The notes under the pieces are model-generated. The model was not told the origin of the DNA and did no database searches. It was given only the letters and a program-made list of their open reading frames with translations. The position numbers and the translations under genes are program-made. This document shows, in pieces, positions 15,251-35,529 of a stretch of DNA of 64,000 nt. The stretch lies in the IMG/VR virus record IMGVR_UViG_3300028800_002449; one strand, 5' to 3'. The first letter of the stretch is position 1, and every line of letters starts with the position of its first letter. The stretch comes from a virus.

Positions 15251-15254
15251 CTTA

Positions 15255-22010: not shown

Positions 22011-22173
22011 GACTGCGATGCTCCAACAGACTGAACTATCAGTCGCCTACCGGTCAAGAGAAAAAATAAAACTTTCTCTCGGACGAACAGGGTGCGACCA
22101 CTGACAGGCAATACGCTGCACTACATGCGGTCACATCTTCGGTCTCGGTCGTTGCCACTTCGACAAAATAAAA

Positions 22174-22203
22174 GTTGACAGCTAGTCCGAATGACAAGAT
22201 AGT
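22174..22203 (+). promoter_or_regulatory. sigma70-like promoter: -35 TTGACA, 17-nt spacer, -10 GATAGT
   Basis: Read directly; direct repeat CACTTCGACAAAA at 22158 and 22219. Confidence 0.5.
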
Positions 22204-22214
22204 CACTTGGACAA

Positions 22215-22643
22215 ATGGTCACTTCGACAAAAATGGTGGACAAGAACGGCGTCGTCAAGCGCTGGTCCTACAAGCAGCTCAACGGCACCAGCCTTCAGCC
22301 GTTCCTCGCTGGCGGCTTCGCCCGACACGTCCACGTCCTCCTGTTTCGTGGAGACATGAAGGAGGTCGCCAGGCTCACCTCCGACATGACCCCGCTCGAT
22401 AGAACAGCGGTCAAAGTGGCGATCCAAGAAGATTACGCCCTCTACGAGTTCTATACGGTCTCCTTCGCTCCGGGACGAGAATTCGTCACTCTGGAAGACT
22501 GTGCAACAGCATGGGAAGCAGCCGGTGCGCCCGGCGACGTGGTCGTCATGAAAAACGTCTATGACCACAAGGAGAACGAGTACCGAGGTGTCGACTCCCT
22601 CAACCTCGACGGCTCCGTCTATGGCGTTGTCCCTACCCTCTGA
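22215..22643 (+). CDS. hypothetical protein (142 aa)
   Basis: ORF track; first gene after the promoter. Confidence 0.5.
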   Translation: MVTSTKMVDKNGVVKRWSYKQLNGTSLQPFLAGGFARHVHVLLFRGDMKEVARLTSDMTPLDRTAVKVAIQEDYALYEFYTVSFAPGREFVTLEDCATAWEAAGAPGDVVVMKNVYDHKENEYRGVDSLNLDGSVYGVVPTL

Positions 22644-22657
22644 CGCTTTAGGAACCC

Positions 22658-23386
22658 ATGCCCCACTACAAGTACCCAAGGCCGGCAGTCACCGTCGACG
22701 TCGTCGTGTTCGGAGTGCAGCTGACAGGCGAAGAGCGAGGACTCCGCGTTTTGCTCATCCGACGGAAGAACCCGCCCTTCAAGGGCAAGCTCGCCATCCC
22801 CGGCGGGTTCCTCAACCTTGCCGAGTCGCTCGACGCCGCAGCCTTCAGAGAACTTCTGGAGGAGACTGGCATCAAGCCAGCGTACATCGAGCAGTTGTAC
22901 ACCTTCGGAGCACCCAAGCGCGACCCTCGCGAGCGCGTCGTCACCGTCTCGTACCTCACGCTCGTGAAGAGCGAGGAGCACGTGCTCAAGGCAGGCTCCG
23001 ACGCGAAGGAAGCCAAGTGGCTTCGCATCGTCCCCTCAGGTAACAGCTACTTCTTCCCGGGCGCCGAAGTCGCCCCGCAGGGCCTCGCCTTCGACCATGC
23101 CGAGATCCTAGCCAAGGGCGTCGAGCGCCTGCGAAACAAGATCACGTACACAGGCGTCGCGTTCGACCTGCTCCCCGCGGAGTTCACGATGCCACAGCTT
23201 CAGGGCCTCTACGAGATAGTCCTCGGCCGCCAGATCGACAAGGGCAACTTCCGCCGGAAGATGCGCTCGACCGGCGTCCTCAAGGCCCTCGGCAAGAAGA
23301 GCAAGGGCTCGCGAGGGCTCGACCTCTACGCCTTCGACCGCAGCAGGTACGAGAGCACCAAGAACCGCGTCGACTTCAACGTCTAG
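22658..23386 (+). CDS. NUDIX hydrolase (ADP-ribose pyrophosphatase family) with a C-terminal NrtR-like winged-helix region
   Basis: Nudix box GGFLNLAESLDAAAFRELLEETGI (Gx5Ex7REuxEExGu). Confidence 0.7.
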   Translation: MPHYKYPRPAVTVDVVVFGVQLTGEERGLRVLLIRRKNPPFKGKLAIPGGFLNLAESLDAAAFRELLEETGIKPAYIEQLYTFGAPKRDPRERVVTVSYLTLVKSEEHVLKAGSDAKEAKWLRIVPSGNSYFFPGAEVAPQGLAFDHAEILAKGVERLRNKITYTGVAFDLLPAEFTMPQLQGLYEIVLGRQIDKGNFRRKMRSTGVLKALGKKSKGSRGLDLYAFDRSRYESTKNRVDFNV

Positions 23387-23395
23387 GAGGCCCCC

Positions 23396-24124
23396 ATGGC
23401 GATGGCACACAAAGCTCCTACGGCTCACTACAAGCGGACCAACTACATCTCGTTGCACGCCGTCGAGCAGCTGCGACAGCGGATCGGAAAGAAACACGAT
23501 CTTTTCAGCCGAGACAACAGCGACCTGTCCAACGCCATCGACGAGGCCGTATGCATCGGACTCAAGAAGCCCAACGTCGAGAAGTTCGAGTACGAGGGGA
23601 AGCCCAACCTCGGCGTCGACATCTCCGACTTCTTCGGCTTCCCTCTCAAAGCCGTCGTCGCGAAGAACGAGAAGGAAAACTCGCCGTATCGAGCAGCCGT
23701 CGTCACAATCCTCACCGCCAACATGTCCATGAAGAACGACAAGAGCGGTGCATCCTTCGCGGACGCGATCAGCCCCGAGGTCAAAGCCGCTCTCCGCGCA
23801 GCCATCGAGCAAAAGGACGTGCCTGCCCCCGAGCCCCGTGAAGCTGTCGGTGCTGCTGCACCGCCGAAAGCCATCCCGGCTCGCGCGATCGTCGAATCCA
23901 AGCCTTCGAAGATCTCAACACGCGACGTCTCGCCCGATCGCCGCCTCATCACCTACGTCAAGCCCGGCTCGACAGATCTCGTCATCGAAGAGTTCGCTGC
24001 CCCGGGCGACCTGCGCAACCGCATCTTCGATCTCCATCAGAAGGGAACGCCCCTCGCTGAGATCTCCGTCTGGAAGCCTTCCAAGGCCTCCATCGCCATC
24101 GCGCTCGATTTCGAAGAAGGCTGA
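23396..24124 (+). CDS. hypothetical protein (242 aa) between the NUDIX and NadV genes
   Basis: ORF track; co-oriented and tightly spaced. Confidence 0.5.
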   Translation: MAMAHKAPTAHYKRTNYISLHAVEQLRQRIGKKHDLFSRDNSDLSNAIDEAVCIGLKKPNVEKFEYEGKPNLGVDISDFFGFPLKAVVAKNEKENSPYRAAVVTILTANMSMKNDKSGASFADAISPEVKAALRAAIEQKDVPAPEPREAVGAAAPPKAIPARAIVESKPSKISTRDVSPDRRLITYVKPGSTDLVIEEFAAPGDLRNRIFDLHQKGTPLAEISVWKPSKASIAIALDFEEG

Positions 24125-24149
24125 TCGCTCTAGGAAAGGAAGATCCTCC

Positions 24150-25586
24150 ATGAACAACAACTACGATCCCATGGCGAACCTCATCGCCGACTCCGACAGC
24201 TACAAGTTCGGCCACTGGCTCATGCTGCCCGACGGCACCACGCAGACGCACGCGCACATGCTCTCCCGCGGCGGGCGCTACGGCCGCACCACTCAGTGGG
24301 GCATGCGCCCCATCACCATCCGCATGGCCCAGTGGGCGGAACTCACCACGAAGGAGCGCATGCTCCACGTCGAGGAGTGCGCCGACTTCGCCCCCGACCA
24401 CGGGCTGCCCTTCAACATCGACGACTGGACGTACATCGCCACCGACCTCGGCGGTCGCATCCCCATGCGCATCCGCGCCGCCAAGGAGGGCGCCTCCATC
24501 CCCGTCCGCAACGTGCTTTCCACCTACGACTCGACGGACAAGCGCGTGCCGTGGATCACCGGCTGGTTCGAGACGCAGTTCGTCCGCGCCTGGGCCGGCA
24601 CCACCGTCGCCACCAAGTCGTTCAACGGCGTCAAGGTCTTCTGGGACTTCCTCAAGGAGACCTCCGACGACCCGGCGGGCGAGATCGACTTCAAGCTGCA
24701 CGACTTCGGCTCGCGCGGCGTCACCTGCCCGCAGCAGGCCGCCTTCAACGGCGCCGCCCACCTCGTCAACAGCAAGGGCAGCGACACCGTCATCGCCATG
24801 CTCTACGCCAAGAACGTCTACGGCACCAAGGAGAAGGTCGCCGGCTACAGCATCCCCGCGCTGGAGCACTCGTCGGTCATCCCCTTCAAGGACCAAGAGG
24901 AGTCCTTCATCCGCTTCATCGAGAAGTTCAAGGACCCGAAGTTCAAGTACCTCTCGGCGATCTCCGACACGATCGACATCTACGACTGCGTCGAGAACAT
25001 CTGGTGCGGCACGATGCTCGACCTCGTGAAGGCCAGCGGCAAGACGATCGTCATCCGCCCCGACTCGGGCAAGGCCCCCGTCATCATGCCCGACCTCCTG
25101 CACATCATGGACAGGAAGATCGGCTGCACCACCAACGGGAAGGGCTTCAAGGTCCTGCCGCCCTACTACCGCTTCATCTGGGGCGACGGCAACAAGACGG
25201 AGGACGACATCAGGGACATGCTCATGTCGATCAAGCAGCACGGCTTCTCGGCGTCGAACATGGTCTCGGGCATGGGCGGCGGCTTGCTCCAGCTCGTCGA
25301 TCGCGACATGCAGATGTTCAAGTTCATGGTCTCCGCCATGAACATCAACGGCTCCTGGAGGGAGGTCAAGAAGACGCCGAAGACCGACGTCCACAAGGTC
25401 TCCCGAGCCGGACGGCTCGACCTCATCAAGCGCGAGGGCCAGTACGAGACCGTCAACCTGACGGCAGACCAGGCGTTCCACCCGCTCACCGAGCTTCACA
25501 CCATCTTCGAGGACGGCAAGATCGGCAAGACCTGGGACCTGGACGAGAGCCGCGCCGAGTCCCGTCGCGCCCTCCTCGAAACGTAG
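24150..25586 (+). CDS. nadV: nicotinamide phosphoribosyltransferase (NadV/NAMPT family)
   Basis: About 478 aa; NAMPT-type N-terminus DSYKFGHW and family-typical length; ribosome-binding site AGGAAAGGAAG; start re-called inside track ORF 23748..25586. Confidence 0.8.
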   Translation: MNNNYDPMANLIADSDSYKFGHWLMLPDGTTQTHAHMLSRGGRYGRTTQWGMRPITIRMAQWAELTTKERMLHVEECADFAPDHGLPFNIDDWTYIATDLGGRIPMRIRAAKEGASIPVRNVLSTYDSTDKRVPWITGWFETQFVRAWAGTTVATKSFNGVKVFWDFLKETSDDPAGEIDFKLHDFGSRGVTCPQQAAFNGAAHLVNSKGSDTVIAMLYAKNVYGTKEKVAGYSIPALEHSSVIPFKDQEESFIRFIEKFKDPKFKYLSAISDTIDIYDCVENIWCGTMLDLVKASGKTIVIRPDSGKAPVIMPDLLHIMDRKIGCTTNGKGFKVLPPYYRFIWGDGNKTEDDIRDMLMSIKQHGFSASNMVSGMGGGLLQLVDRDMQMFKFMVSAMNINGSWREVKKTPKTDVHKVSRAGRLDLIKREGQYETVNLTADQAFHPLTELHTIFEDGKIGKTWDLDESRAESRRALLET

Positions 25587-25589
25587 GCG

Positions 25590-25934
25590 ATGGAAGAAGG
25601 TGAGAATAGTTCGAAAGCCTCCGTCGCATCCGCGGCGGCGGCTTCCGATCCCAACGACCTCAAGGGCTGCATCACGTTCTTGGTGCTCCCCGTGGTCATG
25701 CTCGTCGACGGCGTCTGCCTGTCCTCGCTGTGGGGATGGTTCCTGACGCCGCTCGGGCTGCCCAAGATCGGCGTCGCACACGGCGTGGGGCTCATGCTCC
25801 TGCGGAAGTTCTTCACCGTCGGCAGCACGAGACAGGGAAGCCTCAAGAAGGACTACGTCCTCTCGATGCTCCAAGTCAAAATCCTCGCCATGCTCCTTGG
25901 CTACGTCATGTACAGGATCATGATCCGACCATGA
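25590..25934 (+). CDS. small membrane protein
   Basis: Two hydrophobic helices. Confidence 0.45.
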   Translation: MEEGENSSKASVASAAAASDPNDLKGCITFLVLPVVMLVDGVCLSSLWGWFLTPLGLPKIGVAHGVGLMLLRKFFTVGSTRQGSLKKDYVLSMLQVKILAMLLGYVMYRIMIRP

Positions 25935-26362
25935 TCAAGCGTCTCGACGTCGCGCATCGGATGCTGCCGGCAGCTCTCAGCATCCTCACTCTCTTGGCGA
26001 CAGCTCTGCTCTTCATCTGCGACGTGAAACCTTCCCTCTTTCCGCCCCGCTCACATGACGTGTTGGCCGCCACACCCCTCGCGCTCATCGCCGTCGCGTA
26101 CCTCGTCTATCAAGCCATCCGAGTCGTAGGGCTTCTAGAGCTTGTGAAAGCGATCCTCCTCGCCGTCGCCTTCCTCCTGTGGGCTGCGAACCAGCTGTGG
26201 TCGGAACTGCCAGGAGCGCAGCTCTTGAACGATCTGGCCATCGCGCTGTTCGTGCTCGACATGTTCCTCGTCATCATCGGATGGCCATCGTCCTCGCCCG
26301 ACGAGGCCTTCGGTGAGACTTATGCCGAACCGCGCTCGCGATCTGGAGGAAAAGACACATGA
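25931..26362 (+). CDS. integral membrane protein (about 143 aa)
   Basis: ATGA overlap with the upstream gene; four hydrophobic segments. Confidence 0.5.
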   Translation: MIKRLDVAHRMLPAALSILTLLATALLFICDVKPSLFPPRSHDVLAATPLALIAVAYLVYQAIRVVGLLELVKAILLAVAFLLWAANQLWSELPGAQLLNDLAIALFVLDMFLVIIGWPSSSPDEAFGETYAEPRSRSGGKDT

Positions 26363-26784
26363 AGAACGAGATGAGCAACTTCAACCTGCACGTCACCGCC
26401 AACACGACCCATCAGTTCAAGCTCGCGATGGAGATCGCGTTCTTCATCGAGCAAGAGCTGTTCGTCTCGAAGAAGCACTACGAGGTCGCTCGATCCTGGA
26501 AGGTCGAAGACGGATGCCTCGTCCTGTCGAAGTTAGGCGAGGGAGACTCGCTCGCTGAAAATAGGCTCACCCTCTTGCCGATGCCCCTCGACCATGATCA
26601 AGTCATCAACTTCGCATGCGGCTGGCTCCTTTCGGACGAGGCCAAGGCTCTCAAAGGCCCCGATCCAGCCATCGACGATGAAACGAAGGGAGCCTTCCTC
26701 GTCATGGCAACCAACGCCATAGTCAACAGGCGACACGAAATCGTCAGGATCATGCCGATCTGGACATCGCCCGTGACAGCATGA
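26359..26784 (+). CDS. hypothetical protein (141 aa)
   Basis: ATGA overlap with the upstream gene. Confidence 0.5.
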   Translation: MKNEMSNFNLHVTANTTHQFKLAMEIAFFIEQELFVSKKHYEVARSWKVEDGCLVLSKLGEGDSLAENRLTLLPMPLDHDQVINFACGWLLSDEAKALKGPDPAIDDETKGAFLVMATNAIVNRRHEIVRIMPIWTSPVTA

Positions 26785-27032
26785 GCACTGTCGAGATCCA
26801 GCCTCAAGACGTCCAGGACGGCGTCGTGATCGCCTCAGAAGGTCATCCGGAATGTCCAGAGCCCTGCGGCTGCGACGAATCGAACGCGATGCGCGATCTC
26901 CTCGAATGCATCATCCAGTACGACTCCGACGTCAACCCCTGCGACCCTGAACACTGTCAAGGAAAGTGCGCCTTCTGCCAGGCGCGCGTCCTGCTCGAAC
27001 GTCTCGAAGAGAAAAGGAAGCTGCGAAGATGA
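26781..27032 (+). CDS. small Cys-rich protein (83 aa)
   Basis: CPEPCGC ... CDPEHCQGKCAFC. Confidence 0.45.
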   Translation: MSTVEIQPQDVQDGVVIASEGHPECPEPCGCDESNAMRDLLECIIQYDSDVNPCDPEHCQGKCAFCQARVLLERLEEKRKLRR

Positions 27033-27553
27033 GCGAGAAGACGCTCCTGGAGGCTCGCAAGGAGACGTTCGAGGCTGCACTCTTCGGCAAGGGGAAGAAG
27101 TGTCCGTGCTGCGACCGTTTCGTGAAGGTCTACAAGCGCAAGTTCAACAGCGCGATGGGAAGAGCGCTCATCATTCTCTACCGCCACTACAACAGCCCGA
27201 TGGGGATGAAGCTGGGACCCGAGGAGTGGGTTCATTTCCCGACGCTGCTCATGGGAAAGGGTGCTCAGAGGTCGGACGAGGGCAAGCTCGCGATCTGGGG
27301 GCTCGTCGAAAAGCTCTCAGGCCTCCGTGATGACGGCTCGAAACGGAACGGCTTCTACAGGATCACAGATCTCGGACGGAAGTTCGCTCGAAGCGAGATC
27401 GACCTTCCTGCACACGCCTTCCTCTACTACGGCGGCCAAGTGCTCGGGTTCTCCGACGGCGACAAGTACCCGAAGGCGCTCGTGAGGATCGGCGACGTCT
27501 TCGGGAAGTCGTTCAACTATCGCGAGATGATGGAGGCTCCCTATGGCGAGTAA
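27029..27553 (+). CDS. hypothetical protein with a CPCC zinc-ribbon motif (about 174 aa)
   Basis: Start MSEKTLLEAR overlaps the upstream stop. Confidence 0.5.
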   Translation: MSEKTLLEARKETFEAALFGKGKKCPCCDRFVKVYKRKFNSAMGRALIILYRHYNSPMGMKLGPEEWVHFPTLLMGKGAQRSDEGKLAIWGLVEKLSGLRDDGSKRNGFYRITDLGRKFARSEIDLPAHAFLYYGGQVLGFSDGDKYPKALVRIGDVFGKSFNYREMMEAPYGE

Positions 27554-27830
27554 CAGCACGAAGCATTTGGTCATCGTCCTTTCCATCATCAGCGTATTCG
27601 GCGTCATCATAGCGTCGGCAGCCTTCTACGCTACCGACAGAAACAAGGTCGTCGCCGTCGGAGAAAAGCATCCCGACGGATGCACTGACTCCATCGTTCT
27701 CATCGTCGTCGACACCTCAAACGAACACTACTCGTGTCTAGATCCTCTTCAAAAAATAGAGGTCTACCCAGCAGGCATGAACAAATATTCAAGCCCCATG
27801 GCACTCGTCAAGTGTGTCTGCCCTAAGTAG
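27543..27830 (+). CDS. small membrane-anchored protein
   Basis: N-terminal transmembrane segment IVLSIISVFGVIIASAAFY. Confidence 0.4.
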   Translation: MASNSTKHLVIVLSIISVFGVIIASAAFYATDRNKVVAVGEKHPDGCTDSIVLIVVDTSNEHYSCLDPLQKIEVYPAGMNKYSSPMALVKCVCPK

Positions 27831-27852
27831 TTTTTATCTTGCTTAAGATAAA
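27826..27852 (+). promoter_or_regulatory. conserved promoter element TTTTTATCTTGCTTAAGATAAAC
   Basis: Matches TTGCTTAAGATA from the 12343 promoter; inverted repeat TTATCTT/AAGATAA. Confidence 0.4.
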
Positions 27853-27874
27853 CCTGAGAAGTTAGGATACATCC

Positions 27875-28060
27875 ATGGCCTTCACCTGCGCCGAGTGCCA
27901 CGACAAGACGAAGTGCAAGTACCACGTCCCTCCGACCTACCCGATGGGTGAGCACCCGTCGTGGCCGGGCGTGAAGGTCTACCTGCCTGCCATCTTCACG
28001 AACATCTCCGTCGGTCGATGCGAGGACTGCAAGAAGTCGAGGCCGTGTGTTGACTGCTAA
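27875..28060 (+). CDS. small Cys-rich protein (61 aa)
   Basis: CAECHDKTKC ... CEDCKKSRPCVDC. Confidence 0.4.
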   Translation: MAFTCAECHDKTKCKYHVPPTYPMGEHPSWPGVKVYLPAIFTNISVGRCEDCKKSRPCVDC

Positions 28061-28253
28061 GACAAGAAACCAGATCTACTCCATGCTCATCGGAGCTACG
28101 GTCTCCGGCTTTACGTCATACGAAGGTGGCAGTTTCTTAGTCGCTGTCATCGTCGGAGGCGGCGCAGGCTTCCTCGTGGGTCTGGTGTGGTTCAAAGATG
28201 AGCCCATCAAGAATAAAGGCCGTCGTGCCTCGCAAAGAGAAGACGGAGCTTGA
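28047..28253 (+). CDS. small membrane protein (68 aa)
   Basis: Gly-zipper transmembrane segment VIVGGGAGFLVGLVW. Confidence 0.35.
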   Translation: MLTAKTRNQIYSMLIGATVSGFTSYEGGSFLVAVIVGGGAGFLVGLVWFKDEPIKNKGRRASQREDGA

Positions 28254-28457
28254 GCAGGTTGAGCAGCTCGAAGCGTTGATGGACGAACAGGTCCCGAGCG
28301 CTCTTCAACGTGCTGCGTCCGACTCCAGGAAGACGTCAGCCACATGGGTCGGCTCGGGCGACTTCCTCGTGCTCCTCGTCTGCGACGCCACGTCGGCCAT
28401 CAAGCCCACCCAGAAGCGCTACACCTGCCGGATCCTCGACCTCAAGGAGAAGTGAAA

Positions 28458-29675
28458 GTGGCAACTAGATCTGAAAGTGGCAACTCAACTCTTCAAGAGA
28501 TCCTCCTCACCGGCAAGACCGACCTATACGTCGTCGCCACCGGAGCGGGGACGAACCTGCTCACGAGCCTCTGGGCCACCCCCGGTGCCAGCGCCTACCT
28601 CAAGGGATTCCACTTCCCCTACGACACGGCCGAGACCGACTCGTTCCTCGGCTTTCAACCGGCGGCCTACTGCACCGAGAAGACTGCGATCTTGATGGCC
28701 ACCGAGGCCTACGTCAGGGCTCGTCGCCTCCACTACCTCCGCGGGGAAGATCGCAACGCCGCCACCGTCGGGCGGAAAGCCATCGGGCTCGCCGTGACGG
28801 CCTCCGTCGCTTCCATGACGGAGCATCGTGGAGAGCACCGTGCCTTCATCGCCACCGTCAGCAACCACACGCCTCCGACCTTCACCTCAAAGAAGATCGG
28901 TCTTCAGAAGGGCGTCGGTCTCTTCACGCGCATGAGTGACGACGCAATCGTCTCACATGCAGCCATGGAAGAGTTGTCCCAGACCCTGCGCGACGAGGCC
29001 TACTCGGTGCCCAACTACACTGAAGATCAGGTCATAGAGATGCTTTTCGAGCATCCATATCCTCTCGGGCACGAAGGCTACAGCCTCCGGAACGACAAAG
29101 TCGTCTTCATCCCTGGCAACTTCAATCCTCTGCATCAATGTCACCAGTCGATGGGACAGACGTTGAGGTCGCTCTACGGCTACAAGCCCGTCTACACGAT
29201 CTGCGTGGACCCCCCGCACAAGCCCGCCCTCGCCCTCGTCGACATGCTCGACAGGGTCGCGATGTTTCGCGCGCTCGCGCCACATGCCGCTCTCCTCTTC
29301 ACCAGGAAGGATCCTCTCTTCATCGACAAAATGAAGGCCCGCCCCAGCTCGACGTGGGCCGTCGGCGGCGACACGCTCGATCGCCTCCTCGATCCGAAGT
29401 GGGGCCCGTCTACGGACGAGGTCTGCGACGTCATCAAGGAGACCGATTCGACCATCTACTTGTTCCCTTCGAAGCACGGTGAAGCTTCCATCGATGCGCA
29501 CTCCATCTTCAGGAAATACACGTCCGACAAGCTTGCCCAACTCATGCACAAGAAGATCCTTGGCGTCGACGTGGATCTTCCTGAGATCCGCTCCTCCGCC
29601 ATCAGGGCAGCCGCGATGAACCCGCCACCCTTCGACATCCACGAGCTGGACGCCGGCTCCGAACCCCGGAGATGA
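28458..29675 (+). CDS. fusion protein: CinA-C/PncC-like (NMN amidohydrolase fold) N-domain plus NMN/NaMN adenylyltransferase-like C-domain
   Basis: N-terminal ATGAGTNLLTSLWATPGASAYLKGFHFPYDTAE resembles the PncC AESCTGGLLA..LT..PGSSAYFLGGVVAYSNEAK block. C-terminal FIPGNFNPLHQCH carries the HxGH nucleotidyltransferase motif. GTG start after GAAGTGAAA. Confidence 0.6.
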   Translation: MATRSESGNSTLQEILLTGKTDLYVVATGAGTNLLTSLWATPGASAYLKGFHFPYDTAETDSFLGFQPAAYCTEKTAILMATEAYVRARRLHYLRGEDRNAATVGRKAIGLAVTASVASMTEHRGEHRAFIATVSNHTPPTFTSKKIGLQKGVGLFTRMSDDAIVSHAAMEELSQTLRDEAYSVPNYTEDQVIEMLFEHPYPLGHEGYSLRNDKVVFIPGNFNPLHQCHQSMGQTLRSLYGYKPVYTICVDPPHKPALALVDMLDRVAMFRALAPHAALLFTRKDPLFIDKMKARPSSTWAVGGDTLDRLLDPKWGPSTDEVCDVIKETDSTIYLFPSKHGEASIDAHSIFRKYTSDKLAQLMHKKILGVDVDLPEIRSSAIRAAAMNPPPFDIHELDAGSEPRR

Positions 29676-31957
29676 CGACCACCCCCGATCGCGCTCAGAT
29701 CATCGTCGCCGAGCGCGACCAGAAGACGAGACAGAACACGTCGGACTCGCCGGTCCGCGGTCGGTGGTACCTCGTCAAGAACGGCGACAAGGACGACGAC
29801 CTCGACGTCGACAAGATCGAGAAGGATGTCGACGACTTCTCATACCGCACGTCGGTCACCGAGGAAGACGTAGTTGCAGCTGAGAAAGCCGGCGGTTGGA
29901 TCGGATGCGTCACCCACGTCGGCAGCAACTACGTGGAGGTCAAGGGTCCCTCAGATAGCACCGGGATGTTCGTCACGCGCATCCACTACGAGAACTTCTG
30001 GCGCCGATGCTCTCCCATAGACGACTCCGACCTCATCATCGACGGGAAGATCTCCCGCTACCAAGACCAGACACGCAAGCTCATGGCCGAGGTCAAGGCC
30101 CTCACGGCCAAACTCGGCGTAGCCCCTCGGCAGGAGATCGCAGACGGGTCAGAATCGGAGGTCAAGGCGATCTCGATCCGAAGCTCCGAGCCCGTCGAGG
30201 AGTACAAGAAGGCCCTCATCAAGGCCGAGGAGAAGACACTCCCCGACCTCTTCGAGAAGATCGAGGAGTCGAACGCGATGATGAGCACGTGGATGAAGGC
30301 CAAGATCATCCCGCTCGAAGCCGAATCGGAAGCGCTCAAGGACACCGTCGGGCTCGTCAAAGATCGCATCTTCAGCGTCGAGCTTTACGCAGGCCTCGTC
30401 GAGAAGGTCGTGCGCGTGCGCGACGGCAAGCCGGCCGAAAACGACGCGCAGGTTCACCTCATGCAGCGCCGCGCCTACATGGACGAGGAGTGCCTCGTCG
30501 GCTACGAGACGGGCGGCATGGACTACCAGAACATCGAAGACTTCGACAAGTGGCTCTGCAAGCCGGCCAACTTCCAGCGTCTGCTTCCCTACCCCAAAAC
30601 CTTCATCGCCTTCCAAGTCCGCCGTGAGAAGAAAGAGCGCGAGGCCTCCTCGTGGGGCGAGTACGTCCAGGTCATGGCTCAGGAGAAGGCTGACGAGTCG
30701 ACATACCTCTACGTCCGGAACGGTGAGCAGCTCTATCGCATCAAGACGAAGATCGAGTTCGAGGAGCAGCTCTTCCCCGACACCAACAACAAGATCTTCT
30801 CCAGCAGCAAGCTGTGGGCGAACATCTTCATGAACACCGTCAAGGACATCATCAGCGACGAGGAATTCCAGGGGAAGCTCGAAGACTACCTGGAAGACCA
30901 GAAGCGTCTGAAGAAGATCCCCAAGAAAGATCGGTGGCATTCAAGTCAACACGACGACCCTCGCGAGCGCTACCACCCGCTCACGCAGGACAACGTCTAC
31001 TACGACGACATCATGGCCGTGCTCAACGCCGAGAAGAAGAAGCACAACCGCCTCGTGCTCGTCATGCAGGGCCTCCTCGACCGATCGCCTGTCCTCCATC
31101 CACACCCACCCTGGCAGCTGTGGACGCACGAGGGGTTCAACGCAGCCTTCAAGCTCGTCTACGACGGCACGAGGGCTCTGTCGGCCGGAGACAAGCCCGA
31201 CTTCGAAGCGTATCGCGCGAAGCTCAACGCTCATCTCACGACAGGATCCGTGACCGTCGGTCAGGAGATCTCGTGGCTCCGTCGCGAGGCCGAGCGAGTC
31301 AACCGCGAGAGAGAAAACAGCCCTCACCGTCACCCGTCCGACCGCGAGTACAATCTCTATCGACCATCACACGATCCTGGTCCCGGCAAGCTCGCCATCG
31401 TCGACAGGTACTCGGAGAGCAAGCGAGCTTGCACCTACCGATGGGTGCGCAAGAACCGTCACTACCCCTACGAAAAGGACGTGAACACGTCTCTCACGAC
31501 CGGCGAAGAGAACCTCCTGAACGTCGACGCATACAAGCCCGGCGACTTTCACGTCTTCTTCGACGACCCCCGTACTCGACTCGAATACCTGAGGTGGGCT
31601 CCGATCCTCCTTGAGGCCGAGGAGTGTCATGCGGGCAACCGCAAGATCAAGCCTTGCAAGAGGCTGCCACCCGTCCAGCGTCATCCCAAGCCCGTCGACC
31701 CTCAGATCGATCCGCGACCCGCCGATCTCGACTTCAAGGAGAAGCCGCCGAAGCCCCCCATCGAGGACAAGTACCTCGGCAAGCGCGCCACCATCAACTT
31801 CGACTTCGAGACGAGGGCGAACGACAAGTTCAAGAAGGGCGAACTCGTCATCATCACCAGCTACCACAGGCGAAAAGTCGACGTCACTTCCGCCAAGGAC
31901 AAGGACAAGCGCTGCCATCACCTCGAACTCAACTGGATCACCCTCACCGGAGAATGA
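29672..31957 (+). CDS. large hypothetical protein (761 aa), translationally coupled to the PncC-NMNAT fusion
   Basis: ATGA overlap at 29672; no recognisable catalytic motif; coiled-coil and Lys/Pro-rich C-terminal region. Confidence 0.55.
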   Translation: MTTTPDRAQIIVAERDQKTRQNTSDSPVRGRWYLVKNGDKDDDLDVDKIEKDVDDFSYRTSVTEEDVVAAEKAGGWIGCVTHVGSNYVEVKGPSDSTGMFVTRIHYENFWRRCSPIDDSDLIIDGKISRYQDQTRKLMAEVKALTAKLGVAPRQEIADGSESEVKAISIRSSEPVEEYKKALIKAEEKTLPDLFEKIEESNAMMSTWMKAKIIPLEAESEALKDTVGLVKDRIFSVELYAGLVEKVVRVRDGKPAENDAQVHLMQRRAYMDEECLVGYETGGMDYQNIEDFDKWLCKPANFQRLLPYPKTFIAFQVRREKKEREASSWGEYVQVMAQEKADESTYLYVRNGEQLYRIKTKIEFEEQLFPDTNNKIFSSSKLWANIFMNTVKDIISDEEFQGKLEDYLEDQKRLKKIPKKDRWHSSQHDDPRERYHPLTQDNVYYDDIMAVLNAEKKKHNRLVLVMQGLLDRSPVLHPHPPWQLWTHEGFNAAFKLVYDGTRALSAGDKPDFEAYRAKLNAHLTTGSVTVGQEISWLRREAERVNRERENSPHRHPSDREYNLYRPSHDPGPGKLAIVDRYSESKRACTYRWVRKNRHYPYEKDVNTSLTTGEENLLNVDAYKPGDFHVFFDDPRTRLEYLRWAPILLEAEECHAGNRKIKPCKRLPPVQRHPKPVDPQIDPRPADLDFKEKPPKPPIEDKYLGKRATINFDFETRANDKFKKGELVIITSYHRRKVDVTSAKDKDKRCHHLELNWITLTGE

Positions 31958-32226
31958 ACATGGGCACCATCGCGAGTCAGCGGTTCGAAGGCGTCGTCTC
32001 GGAGGTCCTCGACGGACAGGTCATGAAGGACGGAGAGACCATCGGCATCCTGTGGCCCGACCAATTCAAGGAGAACCACAAGGTCATGATCGTCTCCGAG
32101 ATCGTGCCCAACGGGACGCGCGAGAGAGCCTACGTCAAGATCAACATCCACGGCATCTACGTGCCCGTCTTGATCATGCACCTCATCTCTCTCGGCGCCG
32201 AAGTCTCACGCAAATCAGTCTGGTAG
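31954..32226 (+). CDS. hypothetical protein (90 aa)
   Basis: ATGA overlap with the upstream gene; start re-called within track ORF 31624..32226. Confidence 0.4.
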   Translation: MNMGTIASQRFEGVVSEVLDGQVMKDGETIGILWPDQFKENHKVMIVSEIVPNGTRERAYVKINIHGIYVPVLIMHLISLGAEVSRKSVW

Positions 32227-32236
32227 GAGGAACGAC

Positions 32237-32632
32237 ATGTCGATCATCGAGAAATACAAGCTCCGTGAAGGTCAGATGCGCGTCAACGAGCACGTCCACA
32301 ACGGCCGATGGTACGGACGCGACGGCGTCGGGATCGGCTGGGGCGACCTAACCAAAGAGGACCTCTTCCGCATCGCCGACACCATCTCCGACGACGACGT
32401 CTTCTACGTCGTCGGCGAGACCGACTCCTACTTCAACTCTTCATCGACCAACGGCCTCACGCTTCAACAAGTCAAGGATCTCGCACGATTCACCATCACC
32501 GCCAAGAAGGTGACCGTCCACCAGAAGTGGCTCTCGCGACTCGAAATGAAACAGAAGTCCTTCTCCACCCTCGAAGAGTATGAGCGAGAGCTTCAGCCTC
32601 AGATCCGTCCGCGCGACGTCGTCGAGATCTGA
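32237..32632 (+). CDS. hypothetical protein (131 aa)
   Basis: ORF track. Confidence 0.5.
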   Translation: MSIIEKYKLREGQMRVNEHVHNGRWYGRDGVGIGWGDLTKEDLFRIADTISDDDVFYVVGETDSYFNSSSTNGLTLQQVKDLARFTITAKKVTVHQKWLSRLEMKQKSFSTLEEYERELQPQIRPRDVVEI

Positions 32633-32745
32633 CCAGTTTTATCTTGTCCAAAAGACAAAAGCATTCTACCGTCTGAGCACATGATCCGTCTCGTCGCCAT
32701 CAACTGGCTCATGTGGACCTACCTTGAGCAGAAGCGGCCTTGGAA

Positions 32746-33522
32746 ATGAACATCACCCGCGTATCCATCAGCGGTGCCGACGACGCCATCGATCCGATCG
32801 ACCTCCTGCGGCTCTCGGTCGAGTTCCCCTTCGTCGAGTGGGGGATCCTCTACTCAGAGAAGCGTCAAGGGACGCCTCGATACCCGTCGGCAGAGTGGCG
32901 CGAGAACCTCATCGGCCTGCTGCTCAACACGGTCAAGGGGAAGAACCTTCACCTGGCGCTCCACCTCTGCGGCAAGGCCTCTCGCGACGTCTTCGAGGGC
33001 AGGGACAGCAAGTGGTTCGCGAGGAAGGACTTCCACGCACCCTACGAGCGCGTCCAGCTGAACGGCTTTTCACCCTACAAGGACAAGCTGAAGTACCTGC
33101 CACTCAACAGCGACCCGTACGACAAGGATCAGCTCGCCAACCTCTTCAAATTCTGCCCGTGCGAGTTCATCGTCCAGTGTGCCGACGAGGAAGAACTCAA
33201 GATCGTCGACGACTTCGCCGTCAAGAACAACCTCCAGTTCCTGAACGCGCTCTACGATCCTTCCGGCGGCAGGGGCCTCAGGAACGTCGAATGGCCGCAC
33301 CTGCCGACCAGGCAGGTCAACGTCGGCTATGCGGGCGGCATCGGTCCCGACAACGTCTCCCAGATCGTCTCCGACATCATGGGCAAGCCGAAGACGGACA
33401 AGATGGAGGCCACCTGGATCGACATGGAGAGCCGCATCCGGTCCAACGAAGACAAATTCGACCTCGCGCTCGTCAGAGAAGTCCTCGTCGCCTGCATGAA
33501 GCTCGTCGGAGGTGAGAAGTGA
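32746..33522 (+). CDS. phosphoribosylanthranilate isomerase (TrpF)-like (beta/alpha)8 barrel protein
   Basis: ITRVSISGADDAI...FVEWGIL, VQLNG, NVGYAGGIGPDNVSQIV align with the TrpF blocks ICGIT..DA..A...GAD..GF, VQLHG and ILAGGLNPENV. Confidence 0.55.
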   Translation: MNITRVSISGADDAIDPIDLLRLSVEFPFVEWGILYSEKRQGTPRYPSAEWRENLIGLLLNTVKGKNLHLALHLCGKASRDVFEGRDSKWFARKDFHAPYERVQLNGFSPYKDKLKYLPLNSDPYDKDQLANLFKFCPCEFIVQCADEEELKIVDDFAVKNNLQFLNALYDPSGGRGLRNVEWPHLPTRQVNVGYAGGIGPDNVSQIVSDIMGKPKTDKMEATWIDMESRIRSNEDKFDLALVREVLVACMKLVGGEK

Positions 33523-34070
33523 AGGACCGCATCTGCATGTACCCCGGCACGTTCGGTCCGATCACGCTCGGCCACGAGTGGATCATCGCGGAGTCTCTCA
33601 AGATCTTCGACTACGTCCACGTCCTCATCGCCGAGAACAAGGCCAAGAAGCCGATCTTCAGCATGAACGAACGCCTCTCCATGATCGAGAGCGTCACCAA
33701 CAAGTACGGCGGCAAGGTCGAGGTCGTGAAGAGCCACGACGTCTACACTGTGCAAGCAGCCAAGATCCTGAAGGCCACACACATCGTCCGAGGTATCCGC
33801 AGCGGCATCGACTTCGACTACGAGCGCAGCGTCGATCTGCTCAACAGGGACATCCACAACGCCCTTCGTGAAGACGAGTCAGCCAGCCATGGCGTGTCCA
33901 CCATCTACATGACTCCTCCACGACACCTGGCCGAGGTCAGCTCTTCCATGGCCATGAGCCTCGTAGGGTTCAAAGGGTGGGAGACCGTCATCAAGAACTA
34001 CGTCTCTCAGCCTGTTTTCGAAGCCATCAAGAAGGCCTATGATGGCGGCCACCTCGCCAACCGACCATGA
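33519..34070 (+). CDS. CoaD-like (phosphopantetheine adenylyltransferase family) nucleotidyltransferase
   Basis: MYPGTFGPITLGH (PPAT signature YPGSFDPIT.GH) and VRGIRSGIDFDYERSVDLLNR (PPAT IRGLR...DFEYE...MN). Confidence 0.6.
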   Translation: MKDRICMYPGTFGPITLGHEWIIAESLKIFDYVHVLIAENKAKKPIFSMNERLSMIESVTNKYGGKVEVVKSHDVYTVQAAKILKATHIVRGIRSGIDFDYERSVDLLNRDIHNALREDESASHGVSTIYMTPPRHLAEVSSSMAMSLVGFKGWETVIKNYVSQPVFEAIKKAYDGGHLANRP

Positions 34071-34705
34071 ACAACCAAGCGACCATCGAGACCCTCAGGA
34101 GGTCCTGGAACAAGATCTCCTGGAACCGACCCGATCACGGATGTCTCATCGGCTTCGACGCAATCCTCGGCCGATATCAACGGCCAGGTCGGCACTATCA
34201 CGACCTTCGACACCTCGTGGAGTGTCTCGAACATTCTGAGATCGACAAGGCACGGAACCCGACGGCAGTGCGCCTAGCGCTATTCTTCCACGACTACATC
34301 TACGACACCGAAGTCCATCACGGCAACGAGGAGGCCAGCGCCGACTTCGTCTCGCTCTACGTCGCGACCTGGCTCCAGGATCCTTCCGACGCCTACACCG
34401 CCTGCCATCACATCCTCGCGACAGAGAAGCACAAGGTCGGAACCGTGCCCGAGACCATCCAGGACAGCAAGCTCGTCATCGACTGCGACTTGTCGATCCT
34501 CGGACGCCCCATGGATCGCTACGCGCAGTACGAGAGCGACATCCAGCTCGAATACAGCCACGTCCCGAGCCAGATCTTCAAAGAGGCCAGACGCACCATC
34601 ATGCTCGGCTTCCTCAACCGCAAGGACATCTACTTCAACGAGAGCTTCCGCGAGCGCTACGACAAACAGGCTCGCAAGAACATCTCCGTCTACTGGTCGC
34701 GATGA
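34067..34705 (+). CDS. HD-domain phosphohydrolase
   Basis: GRHYHDLRH ... LALFFHDYIYD (H..HD...D metal-binding pattern). Confidence 0.5.
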   Translation: MNNQATIETLRRSWNKISWNRPDHGCLIGFDAILGRYQRPGRHYHDLRHLVECLEHSEIDKARNPTAVRLALFFHDYIYDTEVHHGNEEASADFVSLYVATWLQDPSDAYTACHHILATEKHKVGTVPETIQDSKLVIDCDLSILGRPMDRYAQYESDIQLEYSHVPSQIFKEARRTIMLGFLNRKDIYFNESFRERYDKQARKNISVYWSR

Positions 34706-34995
34706 TGCCTGGCAACAACGAGGCATTCCACAGCTACATGGGTAAAGAAGAAACCTCCAAGCGACCCGGCGACCTCTGGATCACTTCTGGCGGCAACACC
34801 CGCAAGTTCAAGAAGCTGCTGGAGAAGCACGGCTTCATCCCCAAGCCGGAGTCACATTCGATCATCGACTACCAGTGGTCCATCACCGGCAGGTCGCTGA
34901 AAATGACTTTCGCCTCGGGCGACCAGATCTTCCTCCGTGTCACTCGCGTCACAAGCGTCGCGAAGAAGGTCATCAAGAAGGCTGCCAAGAGATGA
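34702..34995 (+). CDS. hypothetical protein (97 aa)
   Basis: ATGA overlap with the upstream gene. Confidence 0.45.
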   Translation: MMPGNNEAFHSYMGKEETSKRPGDLWITSGGNTRKFKKLLEKHGFIPKPESHSIIDYQWSITGRSLKMTFASGDQIFLRVTRVTSVAKKVIKKAAKR

Positions 34996-35258
34996 TCCAG
35001 GAGAACAGCTCCCCCGAGGCCGGCGAAGAACAAAAGTACGAGGTCGGCAGCCTCCTCAAGTTCGTCGCGTACAACCCGGAAGAGATACCTGATTGGGACG
35101 ATGAAGAACTGAAGCTGCCTGCCGACTATCAGCTCAAAGCCGGCGACCTTCTTCGCGTCGCTCCAAAGAACGGCTGCGGACTCGGCATCGACGTGATCAG
35201 CGAGAACGACGGCCATCCCGACATGGTCTGGCCGGAAGAGGTCGAACTCGTCACCTGA
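34992..35258 (+). CDS. hypothetical acidic protein (88 aa)
   Basis: Start re-called at the ATGA overlap. Confidence 0.4.
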   Translation: MIQENSSPEAGEEQKYEVGSLLKFVAYNPEEIPDWDDEELKLPADYQLKAGDLLRVAPKNGCGLGIDVISENDGHPDMVWPEEVELVT

Positions 35259-35529
35259 TCCGGGCGAGCTGGTTCATCGTGTTCCCGAGCCGCGAGACCT
35301 CCTCGCTGTAGAGCTTGTAGAAGCGCCGCTGGTCAGCTGCAAGGACCTCCTCCACGCGAGGCTTCCTCTTGCGCTTCTTCTTGACAACGTCCTTGGCTGC
35401 ATCCCTCGAAGCCACGACCTTGCCCAACTCTTTCACGACGGCCTTGGGGGGCTCGCTCGACGGCGCTGGGGGCGCGCTCGGCACTGACACGCCCTTCGAT
35501 TTAAGCACCGGCTTGGGCACGTCAATCAC
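35251..35529 (-). CDS. small basic protein (92 aa)
   Basis: ORF track; convergent with the plus-strand operon. Confidence 0.4.
   Translation of the reverse strand: MIDVPKPVLKSKGVSVPSAPPAPSSEPPKAVVKELGKVVASRDAAKDVVKKKRKRKPRVEEVLAADQRRFYKLYSEEVSRLGNTMNQLARIR

What the first reader, a model, noticed from the sequence alone, without database searches (positions are those of the whole stretch)
22658..35258. Extended NAD+ salvage/reconstitution island with unassigned partners
One co-directional block carries NadV/NAMPT, a NUDIX (ADPR pyrophosphatase-type) enzyme, an NMNAT-domain fusion, a CoaD-like adenylyltransferase, an HD phosphohydrolase, a TrpF-like ribose-phosphate barrel, and several unknown proteins. 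A PPP phosphatase, a MazG and a possible PnuC-like membrane protein lie elsewhere in the window. NadV plus an NMNAT/Nudix enzyme is the described phage NAD+ reconstitution route that counters NAD+-depleting immunity (Thoeris, DSR, TIR/SEFIR systems). Here the enzymes are split and rearranged (Nudix separate, NMNAT fused to a PncC-like domain) and surrounded by extra nucleotide-sugar enzymes, so the island may encode a variant or expanded pathway.
Basis: partly seen in the sequence, partly recalled or inferred. Interest (0 to 1): 0.85.

Follow-up and report, generated by a model that had tools for sequence, protein, structure and literature searches.

The report
Regulated phage NAD+ salvage cassette
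A large uncultured phage carries a three-gene kit for rebuilding the cofactor NAD+ (an ADP-ribose-sensor-type regulator, NadV, and an unusual two-domain adenylyltransferase). It looks like a regulated variant of a known anti-immunity pathway, and most other genes of the proposed 'island' are neighbours rather than shown pathway members.

Summary
The window is part of a 260-kb phage-like metagenomic contig. The co-directional block is real. It runs 22215-35258, from a sigma70-like promoter to a terminator-like hairpin.

Confirmed calls:
- NadV
- a Nudix protein
- a CinA/PncC-like + NadD-like fusion
- a CoaD that passes the NCBIfam cut-off
- an HD-type hydrolase (PHROG match only)
- a weakly TrpF-like TIM barrel
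- two metallophosphoesterases
- a half-size PnuC-like protein

No MazG was found.

Three corrections:
1. The Nudix protein has the NrtR architecture (Nudix + NrtR winged helix). Its Nudix box is intact. Four TTGTC-N5-GACAA sites (the NrtR core, GT-N7-AC) overlap the promoter and are conserved in relatives.
2. Only three genes form a recurrent unit: NrtR-like/Nudix, NadV and the fusion. NadV lies within 6 kb of the fusion in 37 of 66 viral loci.
3. The other partners are not shown to belong. CoaD and HD form a pair of their own, fused in another huge phage. CoaD does recur near the cassette (7 of 66 loci). The TrpF-like barrel and the 761-aa protein belong to large phage families found elsewhere without NAD genes.

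Best reading: a NARP2-type NAD+ reconstitution cassette with a different adenylyltransferase and probably ADPR-responsive autoregulation. This is a new variant of a known kind.

The parts
22175..22203 (+). sigma70-like promoter TTGACA-17-GATAGT at the head of the block
   Evidence: 10 of 12 consensus match. Conserved in relatives L020 and L009.
22152..22230 (.). array of four 15-bp operator-like sites T(T/A/G)G(T/C)C-N5-GACAA, at 22152, 22183, 22200 and 22216, overlapping the promoter
   Evidence: The exact pattern gives 6 hits against 0.54 expected, and 0 of 100 shuffles reach 6. The same array is present in L009 and L020, with half-sites kept and spacers varying. The core matches the NrtR consensus GT-N7-AC (PMC2330246).
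22215..22643 (+). 142-aa ORF of unknown function, first gene after the promoter; absent in relative L009
   Evidence: No Pfam, PHROG or NCBIfam hit. In L009 the NrtR-like gene follows the promoter directly.
22658..23386 (+). NrtR-type protein: Nudix domain with an intact Nudix box (GFLNLAESLDAAAFRELLEETGI) plus a C-terminal NrtR winged helix. Predicted ADPR-responsive repressor and probable ADPR pyrophosphatase.
   Evidence: PF00293, PF21906 and PF19368. NF050029 1.3e-48, below its cut-off. Sequence read.
23396..24124 (+). 242-aa protein of unknown function between the NrtR-like gene and NadV; found only in this lineage
   Evidence: No family hit. No phage tblastn hit. Present in L009 and L020 only.
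24150..25586 (+). NadV / nicotinamide phosphoribosyltransferase (Nampt)
   Evidence: Family hits. Best phage relatives are 37-40% identical and include KVP40-like vibriophages.
25590..28455 (+). about ten small genes (membrane, Cys-rich, phrog_2693) inserted between NadV and the fusion; not conserved outside the lineage
   Evidence: In other lineages NadV directly abuts the fusion.
28452..29675 (+). two-domain protein: CinA/PncC-like N-domain (about 1-205) plus NadD-type adenylyltransferase (about 215-390; GNFNPLHQCH, PPHK, SSAIR). Predicted NMN/NaMN adenylyltransferase of the cassette.
29672..31957 (+). 761-aa protein from a highly conserved orphan family of large phages; no evidence of a link to NAD
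   Evidence: More than 1139 homologue clusters at 40-50% identity, none with a Pfam domain. No sequence match in the PDB. Model pLDDT 77; only SH3-like and coiled-coil fold matches. Its homologue in Mesorhizobium phage has no NAD genes nearby.
32644..32658 (.). perfect palindrome TTGTCCAAAAGACAA in the 113-bp gap upstream of the TrpF-like gene; possible fifth operator
   Evidence: A one-mismatch counterpart lies at the same place in L020. Absent in L009.
32746..33522 (+). divergent (beta/alpha)8 barrel with a TrpF-like phosphate-binding half; more than 400 phage or metagenome homologues; function unknown
33519..34070 (+). CoaD / phosphopantetheine adenylyltransferase homologue
   Evidence: TIGR01510 130 bits against a cut-off of 103. 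PPAT structures at 4e-19.
34067..34705 (+). HD-type phosphohydrolase, functionally paired with CoaD
   Evidence: phrog_19425. CoaD-like and HD-like parts are fused in one 386-aa ORF in huge phage LR756500.1.
35355..35373 (+). terminator-like hairpin about 100 bp after the last + strand gene (34992-35258)
60196..60573 (+). 125-aa half-size PnuC-like membrane protein; a possible nicotinamide-riboside/NMN uptake component, 25 kb from the cassette
   Evidence: PF04973 32.2 bits against a cut-off of 27.3, covering profile positions 2-72 of 175.

Best explanation
The block 22215-35258 is one co-directional stretch of early-type genes in a phage of about 260 kb. Embedded in it is a three-gene NAD+ reconstitution cassette that works like NARP2.

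Proposed mechanism:
1. NadV converts nicotinamide and PRPP to NMN.
2. The NadD-type domain of the 407-aa fusion adenylylates the mononucleotide. It either converts NMN to NAD+ directly, or acts on NaMN after the CinA-like domain has processed NMN.
3. The Nudix-winged-helix protein plays the part that the Nudix half of NadM plays in KVP40, hydrolysing ADPR to AMP and ribose-5-phosphate. Being an NrtR-family protein, it also binds the four TTGTC-N5-GACAA sites over the block's promoter.
4. It releases those sites when ADPR accumulates, that is, when a host NADase defence has fired. Expression of the costly pathway would then be tuned to NAD+ breakdown.

Shown here: domain identities, motif integrity, the operator array and its conservation, and recurrence of the trio in viral contigs.

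Inferred: all enzyme activities, the ADPR response, and the anti-defence role.

The remaining genes (761-aa orphan, TrpF-like barrel, CoaD + HD pair, small ORFs) are treated as neighbours. CoaD is a possible accessory.
For: Phage context:
- The 260,244-bp contig carries 35 tRNAs, a tmRNA, an SNF2-type helicase, a RecD-like helicase, a family-B DNA polymerase (PF03175) and a ParB-like protein.

Domain calls:
-.
- The Nudix box is fully intact. In the NrtR family an intact box goes with ADPR pyrophosphatase activity (PMC2330246).
- The fusion's NadD-type catalytic motifs are invariant across 34 family members: GxFNPxHxGH, HK, SSxxR.
- The fusion profile matches NadD structures at 3e-10.

Recurrence:
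- NrtR-like, NadV and fusion are adjacent on a 245-kb contig. Nudix..NadV followed by the fusion occurs on a 174-kb contig.
- Across 66 IMG/VR loci, NadV lies within 6 kb in 37.
- A full-length NrtR-type protein is present in 10 loci, and a Nudix-only hit in 7 more.
- NadV also abuts the fusion on a Vicinamibacteria MAG contig.

Operators:
- Promoter.
- The site pattern gives 6 exact hits against 0.54 expected.
- In L009 and L020 the half-sites are conserved while the spacers vary.
- The core equals the published NrtR core GT-N7-AC.
- In L009 the array lies directly upstream of the NrtR-like gene.

NadV clade:
- NadV groups with KVP40-like Nampt.
- No Adps/PRPP-synthetase-like gene is in the window.
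Against: - No activity was measured.
- The NrtR match is below NCBIfam's curated cut-off (165 bits against 400).
- The sites are 15 bp long and only partly palindromic, not the canonical 21-bp palindromes.
- Whether this protein or another regulator binds the sites is untested.
- The CinA-like domain lacks the catalytic Lys of PncC. Position 62 is never Lys in 34 sequences, so its role is unknown.
- The NadD-like domain could prefer NaMN, which would make the route depend on host NadE.
- 29 of 66 fusion loci have no NadV within 6 kb.
- The rest of the 260-kb genome was not inspected for NadM, NadR or Adps.
Confidence: 0.62

Rival explanations
1. Whole-island pathway. CoaD-like, HD, the TrpF-like barrel and perhaps the 761-aa protein would be extra enzymes of an expanded NAD+/ADPR recycling route. 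They might process ADPR derivatives or ribose phosphates before NadV, by analogy with NARP1-AP and its added phosphatase.
For: - All these genes lie in one co-directional block behind one promoter.
- True CoaD homologues lie within 6 kb of the fusion in 7 of 66 viral loci. Five of those loci also have an NrtR-type gene, far more than CoaD's rarity in phage records would predict (64 of 50,697).
- An operator-like palindrome sits upstream of the TrpF-like/CoaD/HD genes.
- Accessory enzymes in NARP operons have a precedent (bioRxiv 10.64898/2026.01.28.702374).
Against: - No HD or 761-aa homologue occurs in any of the 66 loci. The TrpF-like gene occurs in only one.
- TrpF-like homologues sit alone among unrelated genes in other phages.
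- The 761-aa family is present in Mesorhizobium phage without NAD genes nearby.
- CoaD passes the equivalog cut-off for ordinary PPAT.
- The 32644 palindrome is absent in L009.
Confidence: 0.13
2. Housekeeping auxiliary metabolism rather than counter-defence. The cassette would simply raise NAD+ (and CoaD would raise CoA) for a large phage with high cofactor demand, as first proposed for KVP40. The NrtR-like protein would provide ordinary homeostatic control.
For: - NadV is common in medium-sized and jumbo phages irrespective of known defences (PMC9503650).
- NARP2 raises NAD+ even without a defence system (bioRxiv 10.1101/2024.02.11.579819).
- Bacterial nrtR-prs-nadV operons are homeostatic.
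- The CoaD co-localisation fits a 'cofactor supply' theme.
Against: - It is not exclusive of the anti-defence role. KVP40's NadV + Nmnat pair does overcome NAD+-depleting systems.
- ADPR is the product of NADase effectors, so an ADPR-released repressor fits induction by immunity.
Confidence: 0.2
3. The Nudix-wHTH protein is only an enzyme (ADPR/NAD pyrophosphatase). The repeated TTGTC-N5-GACAA motif belongs to a different phage or host regulator, or is a promoter element.
For: - The Nudix box is intact.
- The sites are shorter and less symmetric than classical NrtR operators.
- The NF050029 score is below its cut-off.
- Palindromes upstream of NrtR-like genes in other lineages are heterogeneous.
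Against: - The NrtR winged helix is a confident Pfam hit at 72.6 bits against a cut-off of 27.
- The array sits immediately upstream of the NrtR-like gene in L009.
- Half-sites are conserved while spacers drift.
- The GT-N7-AC core matches.
- NrtR proteins with intact boxes are known to be catalytically active members of the regulator family.
Confidence: 0.15
4. The fusion runs the deamidated route: the CinA-like domain converts NMN to NaMN, and the NadD domain converts NaMN to NaAD. NAD+ formation would then depend on host NadE.
For: - The N-domain is homologous to PncC.
- The position aligned to the nucleophile Ser31 is Thr or Ser in 30 of 33 sequences.
- The phosphate-binding Gly/Ser/Tyr are kept.
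- Bacterial NadD enzymes generally prefer NaMN (established knowledge of the family).
- JGI names some members PncC/NadD.
Against: - The general-base Lys63 of PncC is replaced in every one of the 34 aligned sequences: Thr in 24, otherwise Leu, Gln, Phe or Ser. K63A abolishes activity in AtCinA (PMC5384747).
- No NadE is in the window.
- The deamidated route costs an extra ATP and glutamine, and depends on the host.
Confidence: 0.3

Closest known systems
NARP2 (Vibrio phage KVP40 Nampt/NadV + Nmnat; Osterman et al., bioRxiv 10.1101/2024.02.11.579819)
   Same: - A NadV of the same clade as KVP40-like phages.
- A HIGH-type nucleotidyltransferase partner.
- A Nudix activity.
- No Adps.
- PRPP-dependent logic.
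   Different: - The adenylyltransferase is NadD-type and fused to a CinA-like domain, not NadM.
- The Nudix is a separate protein carrying a DNA-binding winged helix.
- There is a candidate operator array.
- In this lineage the genes are spread over 7 kb by inserts.
Bacterial NrtR regulons, e.g. nrtR-prs-nadV of Shewanella/Acinetobacter and nadM-nadV of Synechocystis (Rodionov et al. 2008, PMC2330246)
   Same: - Nudix + winged-helix regulator next to nadV.
- Tandem operators with a GT-N7-AC core over the promoter.
- ADPR as the expected anti-repressor.
   Different: - It is encoded by a phage.
- There is no prs gene.
- The sites are 15 bp with an asymmetric flank.
- The Nudix box is intact, which holds for only a minority of NrtRs.
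- The score is below the NCBIfam equivalog cut-off.
PncC/CinA NMN deamidase followed by NadD (pyridine nucleotide cycle)
   Same: - Homologous domains, in the order of the pathway.
- The mononucleotide phosphate-binding residues are kept.
   Different: - The two are fused in one polypeptide.
- The catalytic Lys is absent.
- There are family-specific invariant residues: HRG(E/D)HR, K153 and R160.
- The fusion is not among the three main CinA architectures analysed in PMC3855486, which set aside occasional fusions to other domains.
NARP1-AP and NARP3 (extended or alternative phage NAD+ pathways)
   Same: - Precedent that phage NAD+ operons acquire accessory enzymes or transporters.
- This window also holds a PnuC-like gene.
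   Different: - There is no Adps, Namat, Macro phosphatase or NadR here.
- The PnuC-like protein is half-size and lies 25 kb away.

Membership tests
NARP2 | Nampt/NadV homologue of the KVP40 clade (not Namat) | tested here: met
   phrog_448 8e-110. NF006629 404.8 bits against a cut-off of 405. Best phage hits include KVP40-like vibriophages. No tree against Namat was built.
NARP2 | Nmnat partner encoded by the same phage | tested here: inconclusive
   A NadD-type adenylyltransferase domain with intact motifs is present and recurrently adjacent to NadV. It is not the NadM/NadR type used to define NARP2, and its NMN versus NaMN preference is unknown.
NARP2 | No associated Adps (ADPR-PP synthetase) | tested here: met
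   There is no Pribosyl-synthetase Pfam family among the genes called at 5.8-64 kb, nor in the ORFs at 1-5.3 kb. The rest of the contig was not examined.
NARP2 | Restores NAD+ and overcomes NAD+-depleting defence | not testable with these tools
   Needs expression with Thoeris, DSR or SIR2-HerA and NAD+ measurement.
NrtR regulators | N-terminal Nudix fold + C-terminal NrtR winged helix | tested here: met
   PF00293 66 bits and PF21906 72.6 bits, both above their cut-offs.
NrtR regulators | Palindromic operators with a GT-N7-AC core at promoters of NAD genes | tested here: inconclusive
   Four sites overlap the promoter, are enriched and are conserved. They are 15 bp long and imperfectly symmetric, and binding is untested.
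NrtR regulators | DNA binding relieved by ADP-ribose | not testable with these tools
   Needs EMSA with and without ADPR.
NrtR regulators | NCBIfam equivalog score | tested here: not met
   NF050029 165.6 bits against a cut-off of 400. It is a family member by architecture, not an equivalog.
PncC/CinA NMN deamidase | CinA (PF02464) domain homology | tested here: met
   The family profile matches 2a9s at 8e-4. PF02464 is recorded for two members. The window protein itself scores no Pfam hit.
PncC/CinA NMN deamidase | Ser/Lys catalytic dyad (S31/K63 of AtCinA) | tested here: not met
   The Ser position is T/S in 30 of 33 sequences. The Lys position is T/L/Q/F/S and never K.
NadD (NaMN/NMN adenylyltransferase) | GxFxPxHxGH, PxHK and ISSTxxR motifs | tested here: met
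   These are invariant or nearly so in 34 sequences. The window protein has HQCH in place of HxGH. Its NCBIfam NadD scores are far below the cut-offs.
CoaD (PPAT) | TIGR01510 equivalog score and PPAT motifs | tested here: met
   130.2 bits against a cut-off of 103.3. The alignment to H. pylori PPAT includes the TFGPxTxGH, KKPxF and RGxRxxxDFxYE motifs.
TrpF (PRA isomerase) | Full-length PRAI profile match and catalytic Cys on beta-1 | tested here: not met
   Only the C-terminal phosphate-binding half matches (profile positions 91-190; 23.1 bits against 22.7). Beta-1 reads SISGADD, with no Cys. The fold search gives only generic TIM barrels, TM 0.43-0.54.

The most novel reading that the evidence does not exclude
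The cassette would be a distinct, inducible NAD+ reconstitution system.
- A phage-encoded NrtR would act as a sensor of host NADase immunity. ADPR would release it from the promoter, switching on NadV and a new class of CinA-like/NadD-like enzyme.
- The N-domain of that enzyme would catalyse or channel a step not seen in NARP1-3.
- CoaD/HD would be recurrent accessories.
- If so, thousands of uncharacterised two-domain proteins in viral metagenomes would mark this system. The N-domain HMM finds 3072 clusters at 50% identity.
Probability: 0.22. Interest if true: 0.8.

Novelty: new variant of a known kind. Interest (0 to 1): 0.55.

Why it matters
- NARP2 is reported as rare and metabolically costly because it drains PRPP constitutively. 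A version under an ADPR-responsive repressor would show how phages limit that cost. It would also be an example of a virus sensing the product of host immunity.
- The CinA-like/NadD-like fusion is a large uncharacterised family. It is almost absent from cultured phages (1 of 50,697 records) and from reference genomes (6 MAG or single-cell contigs among 185,579 species; a scan that used only two peptide patterns). It is common on large viral contigs.
- Assigning the fusion a function would improve counts of NAD+ counter-defence in environmental viromes, which current NadM/NadR-based searches miss.
Most of the 'island' should not be annotated as NAD metabolism.

Tried and rejected
DNA and sequence searches that gave nothing:
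- Megablast of 22-36 kb against phage genomes found no match.
- Single-sequence PDB searches gave nothing useful for the fusion, the 761-aa protein, the HD protein and the TrpF-like protein.
- A profile of the 761-aa family against the PDB gave nothing.
- The 242-aa ORF (23396-24124) has no family and no phage homologue.
- No Walker A motif occurs in any island protein, so there is no candidate NR kinase.
- Rfam found no riboswitch in the island.
- MazG was not found.

Fold searches:
- The TrpF-like model (pLDDT 87) matched only generic TIM barrels.

Candidates I rejected:
- The protein after CoaD in Brevundimonas phage Gurke is not an HD homologue.
- Neighbours of CoaD in five IMG/VR loci share nothing with the island.
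- The site at 39873-39887 matches the operator pattern, but I judged it to lie in coding-like sequence, so I did not count it as an operator.
- Palindromes upstream of NrtR-like genes in other lineages are heterogeneous. Only L054 and L069 show a GT-N7-AC core, which is weak support.

Technical:
- The first genome contigs attempt with alignment A1 failed for lack of a conserved stretch. The repeat with the closer set A5 used only two peptide patterns, so distant members would be missed.

Full report
**Context.** The window has about 60% G+C. It lies on a 260,244-bp metagenomic contig, ENA ERZ27245399 k141_2938905. It carries:
- 35 tRNA genes and a tmRNA on the minus strand at 10.6-21.7 kb;
- an SNF2-type helicase, a DNA-polymerase exonuclease-like protein, a ParB-like protein, a RecD-like helicase and a family-B DNA polymerase at 50-64 kb.

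It has no close DNA relative among 50,697 phage records. One protein of the block has 40-42% identical homologues in Erythrobacter phage vB_EliS-L02 and Mesorhizobium phage Cp1R7A-A1. This is a large uncultured phage, possibly of an alphaproteobacterial host. The host assignment is inferred only from those relatives.

**Anatomy of the block.** Third-position G+C and start-site inspection give a gap-poor run of about 22 plus-strand genes from 22215 to 35258. These calls match those recorded for the contig.
- The run begins 12 bp after the -10 hexamer of a sigma70-like promoter, TTGACA-17-GATAGT, at 22175-22203.
- It ends about 100 bp before a terminator-like hairpin at 35355-35373, where a minus-strand block begins.
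- The only sizeable internal gap is 32633-32745.

**What the genes are.**
- 22658-23386 has a Nudix domain plus the NrtR winged-helix domain. It matches NCBIfam's 'ADPR responsive transcriptional repressor' at 1e-48, below that model's cut-off.
- Its Nudix box, GFLNLAESLDAAAFRELLEETGI, fits GX5EX7REUXEEXGU completely.
- 24150-25586 is NadV. Its best phage relatives include the KVP40-like vibriophages, whose Nampt defines NARP2.
- 28452-29675 (407 aa) has a C-terminal NadD-type adenylyltransferase domain. A profile of 34 family members hits B. subtilis NadD at 3e-10, and the HIGH-type, PPHK and SSxxR motifs are invariant.
- Its N-terminal domain is homologous to CinA/PncC: 2a9s at 8e-4, and PF02464 in two members.
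- 33519-34070 is a CoaD that passes the equivalog cut-off.
- 34067-34705 matches only a PHROG 'phosphohydrolase' family and shows HD-type motifs.
- 32746-33522 is a confidently modelled TIM barrel (pLDDT 87). Only its C-terminal phosphate-binding half resembles TrpF, and it has no close structural relative.
- 29672-31957 (761 aa) has no family, sequence or fold match beyond an SH3-like module and a helical hairpin.
- The other ORFs are small, and several are membrane or Cys-rich proteins.

**Which genes belong together.** I used distant relatives as the test.
- The fusion family has 84 word-indexed relatives.
- An HMM of its N-domain alone finds 3072 clusters at 50% identity. The best 150 are nearly all 350-420-aa proteins, consistent with the two-domain architecture.
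- On a 245-kb contig the order is NrtR-type gene, NadV, fusion, all adjacent. On a 174-kb contig it is Nudix..NadV followed by the fusion.
- In 66 IMG/VR loci, NadV lies within 6 kb of the fusion in 37. It is often directly upstream.
- A full-length NrtR-type protein is present in 10 of those loci, and a Nudix-only hit in 7 more.
- The same NadV-then-fusion pair is on a Vicinamibacteria MAG contig.
- None of the 66 loci has a homologue of the 761-aa protein or the HD protein. Only one has the TrpF-like gene.
- The TrpF-like family has more than 400 members. In huge phages and a Microcystis phage it sits among unrelated genes.
- The 761-aa family has more than 1139 clusters at 40-50% identity. 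It occurs in Mesorhizobium phage with no NAD gene nearby.

The recurrent unit is therefore Nudix(-wHTH) + NadV + fusion. In this lineage (window, L009, L020) about ten small genes have been inserted between NadV and the fusion.

**CoaD and HD.**
- In huge phage LR756500.1 the CoaD-like and HD-like parts lie in one 386-aa ORF. This fusion is evidence that the two work together.
- True PPAT-like CoaD genes also lie within 6 kb of the fusion in 7 of 66 loci, five of which also have an NrtR-type gene.
- CoaD is found in only 64 of 50,697 phage records.
- That co-localisation is more than I would expect by chance, but it is not corrected for relatedness. No HD accompanies CoaD in those loci.
- I leave it as an unexplained association. 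It could reflect a cofactor-supply theme or a real accessory role.

**Regulation.**
- Four 15-bp sites, T(T/A/G)G(T/C)C-N5-GACAA, lie at 22152, 22183, 22200 and 22216. One is just upstream of the -35 hexamer, one is in the spacer, and two cover the -10 and start region.
- The exact pattern occurs 6 times in the window against 0.54 expected. None of 100 shuffles reaches 6.
- The array is present at the same place in relatives L020 and L009. Half-sites are conserved and spacers differ. In L009 it directly precedes the NrtR-type gene.
- Its core, GT-N7-AC, is the conserved core reported for NrtR operators. NrtR binding is released by ADPR, and NrtRs with intact Nudix boxes hydrolyse ADPR (PMC2330246).
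- A fifth, perfectly palindromic site (TTGTCCAAAAGACAA, 32644-32658) lies in the gap upstream of the TrpF-like/CoaD/HD genes. It has a one-mismatch counterpart in L020 but none in L009.
- Binding is inferred, not shown.

**The CinA-like domain.**
- Aligned to A. tumefaciens CinA, the family keeps the phosphate-binding Gly/Ser and Tyr.
- It has Thr or Ser at the nucleophile position in 30 of 33 sequences.
- The general-base Lys63, whose K63A mutant is inactive (PMC5384747), is never Lys in this family.
- The family has its own invariant residues: HRG(E/D)HR, K153 and R160.
- So it probably binds a mononucleotide. Whether it deamidates NMN, channels it or does something else is open.

**Comparison with what is known.**
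- NARP2 is defined as Nampt + Nmnat, the latter the KVP40 NadM-Nudix fusion.
- NARP3 is PnuC + NadR.
- NARP1-AP adds a Macro phosphatase.
- A survey of viral NAD+ systems lists only NadV with NadM or NadR, and mentions NrtR-type regulators only in bacterial systems (PMC9503650).
- Searches of the held literature found no description of a phage NrtR-NadV cassette or a CinA-NadD fusion.
- The fusion is in 1 of 50,697 phage records. In a scan of 185,579 species genomes that used only two peptide patterns, it was on 6 MAG or single-cell contigs.
- Full-length NrtR-type proteins are in 11 phage records, including Bacillus phage G.

**Verdict.**
The MazG call fails, and the Nudix protein is a regulator-type protein.
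- The core is best filed as a new variant of NARP2-type NAD+ reconstitution, with probable ADPR-responsive autoregulation. Confidence is about 0.6, because every activity is inferred.

Noticed in passing
window 14802-15251 (-): A phage-encoded tmRNA (Rfam RF00023, 125.9 bits) sits inside the 35-tRNA array. ARAGORN did not report it.
   Followed up: no
window 60196-60573 (+): A 125-aa protein matches only the first half of the PnuC/NMN-transporter profile (positions 2-72 of 175; 32.2 bits against a cut-off of 27.3). It could be a half-size 'semi-PnuC' that works as a dimer. It sits just upstream of a RecD-like helicase, and no NadR or NR kinase is in the window.
   Followed up: partly
window 11038-11586 (-): A 182-aa ORF between tRNA genes matches the middle of the indole-3-glycerol-phosphate synthase (TrpC) profile (32.2 bits against a cut-off of 27). 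This is a second diverged ribulose-phosphate-binding barrel fragment in the same phage as the TrpF-like gene.
   Followed up: no
window 29672-31957 (+): The 761-aa protein belongs to a very conserved orphan family: more than 1139 clusters, 40-50% identical, with about 90 invariant columns. The family occurs on viral contigs of 100-600 kb and has no Pfam, PDB or fold assignment.
   Followed up: partly
L018 9992-11152 (uncultured huge phage LR756500.1): A single 386-aa ORF fuses a CoaD-like domain to the HD-like domain. In the window these are adjacent separate genes.
   Followed up: partly
window 22043-22080: The element GTCGCC..CCGGTCAAGAGAAAAAATAAA(A/T)CTTTCTC is almost invariant in the window, L020 and L009. 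It lies between the tRNA array and the island promoter and can form an AGAGAAA/TTTCTCT hairpin. It could be a signal for the divergent tRNA operon.
   Followed up: no
window 35522-36280 (-) and 42206-43066 (-): Two calcineurin-like metallophosphoesterases lie in the minus-strand block that converges on the island. Neighbouring genes include RHH, HTH_8, PHB_acc_N and Dam-like genes. No link to the NAD genes was found.
   Followed up: no
window 39619-40138 (-): Gene callers left a 500-bp gap here, yet the sequence reads like coding DNA continuous with 38764-39618. This could be a frameshifted or unannotated gene. It contains one operator-pattern match, at 39873.
   Followed up: no
L069 1243-1755 (-) and L044 2631-3776 (-): Near the NrtR-NadV-fusion cassette in other viral contigs lie two further genes. 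By eye, one is a nucleoside 2-deoxyribosyltransferase-like protein and the other a ThyX-like protein. This suggests the cassette often sits in nucleotide-metabolism neighbourhoods.
   Followed up: no
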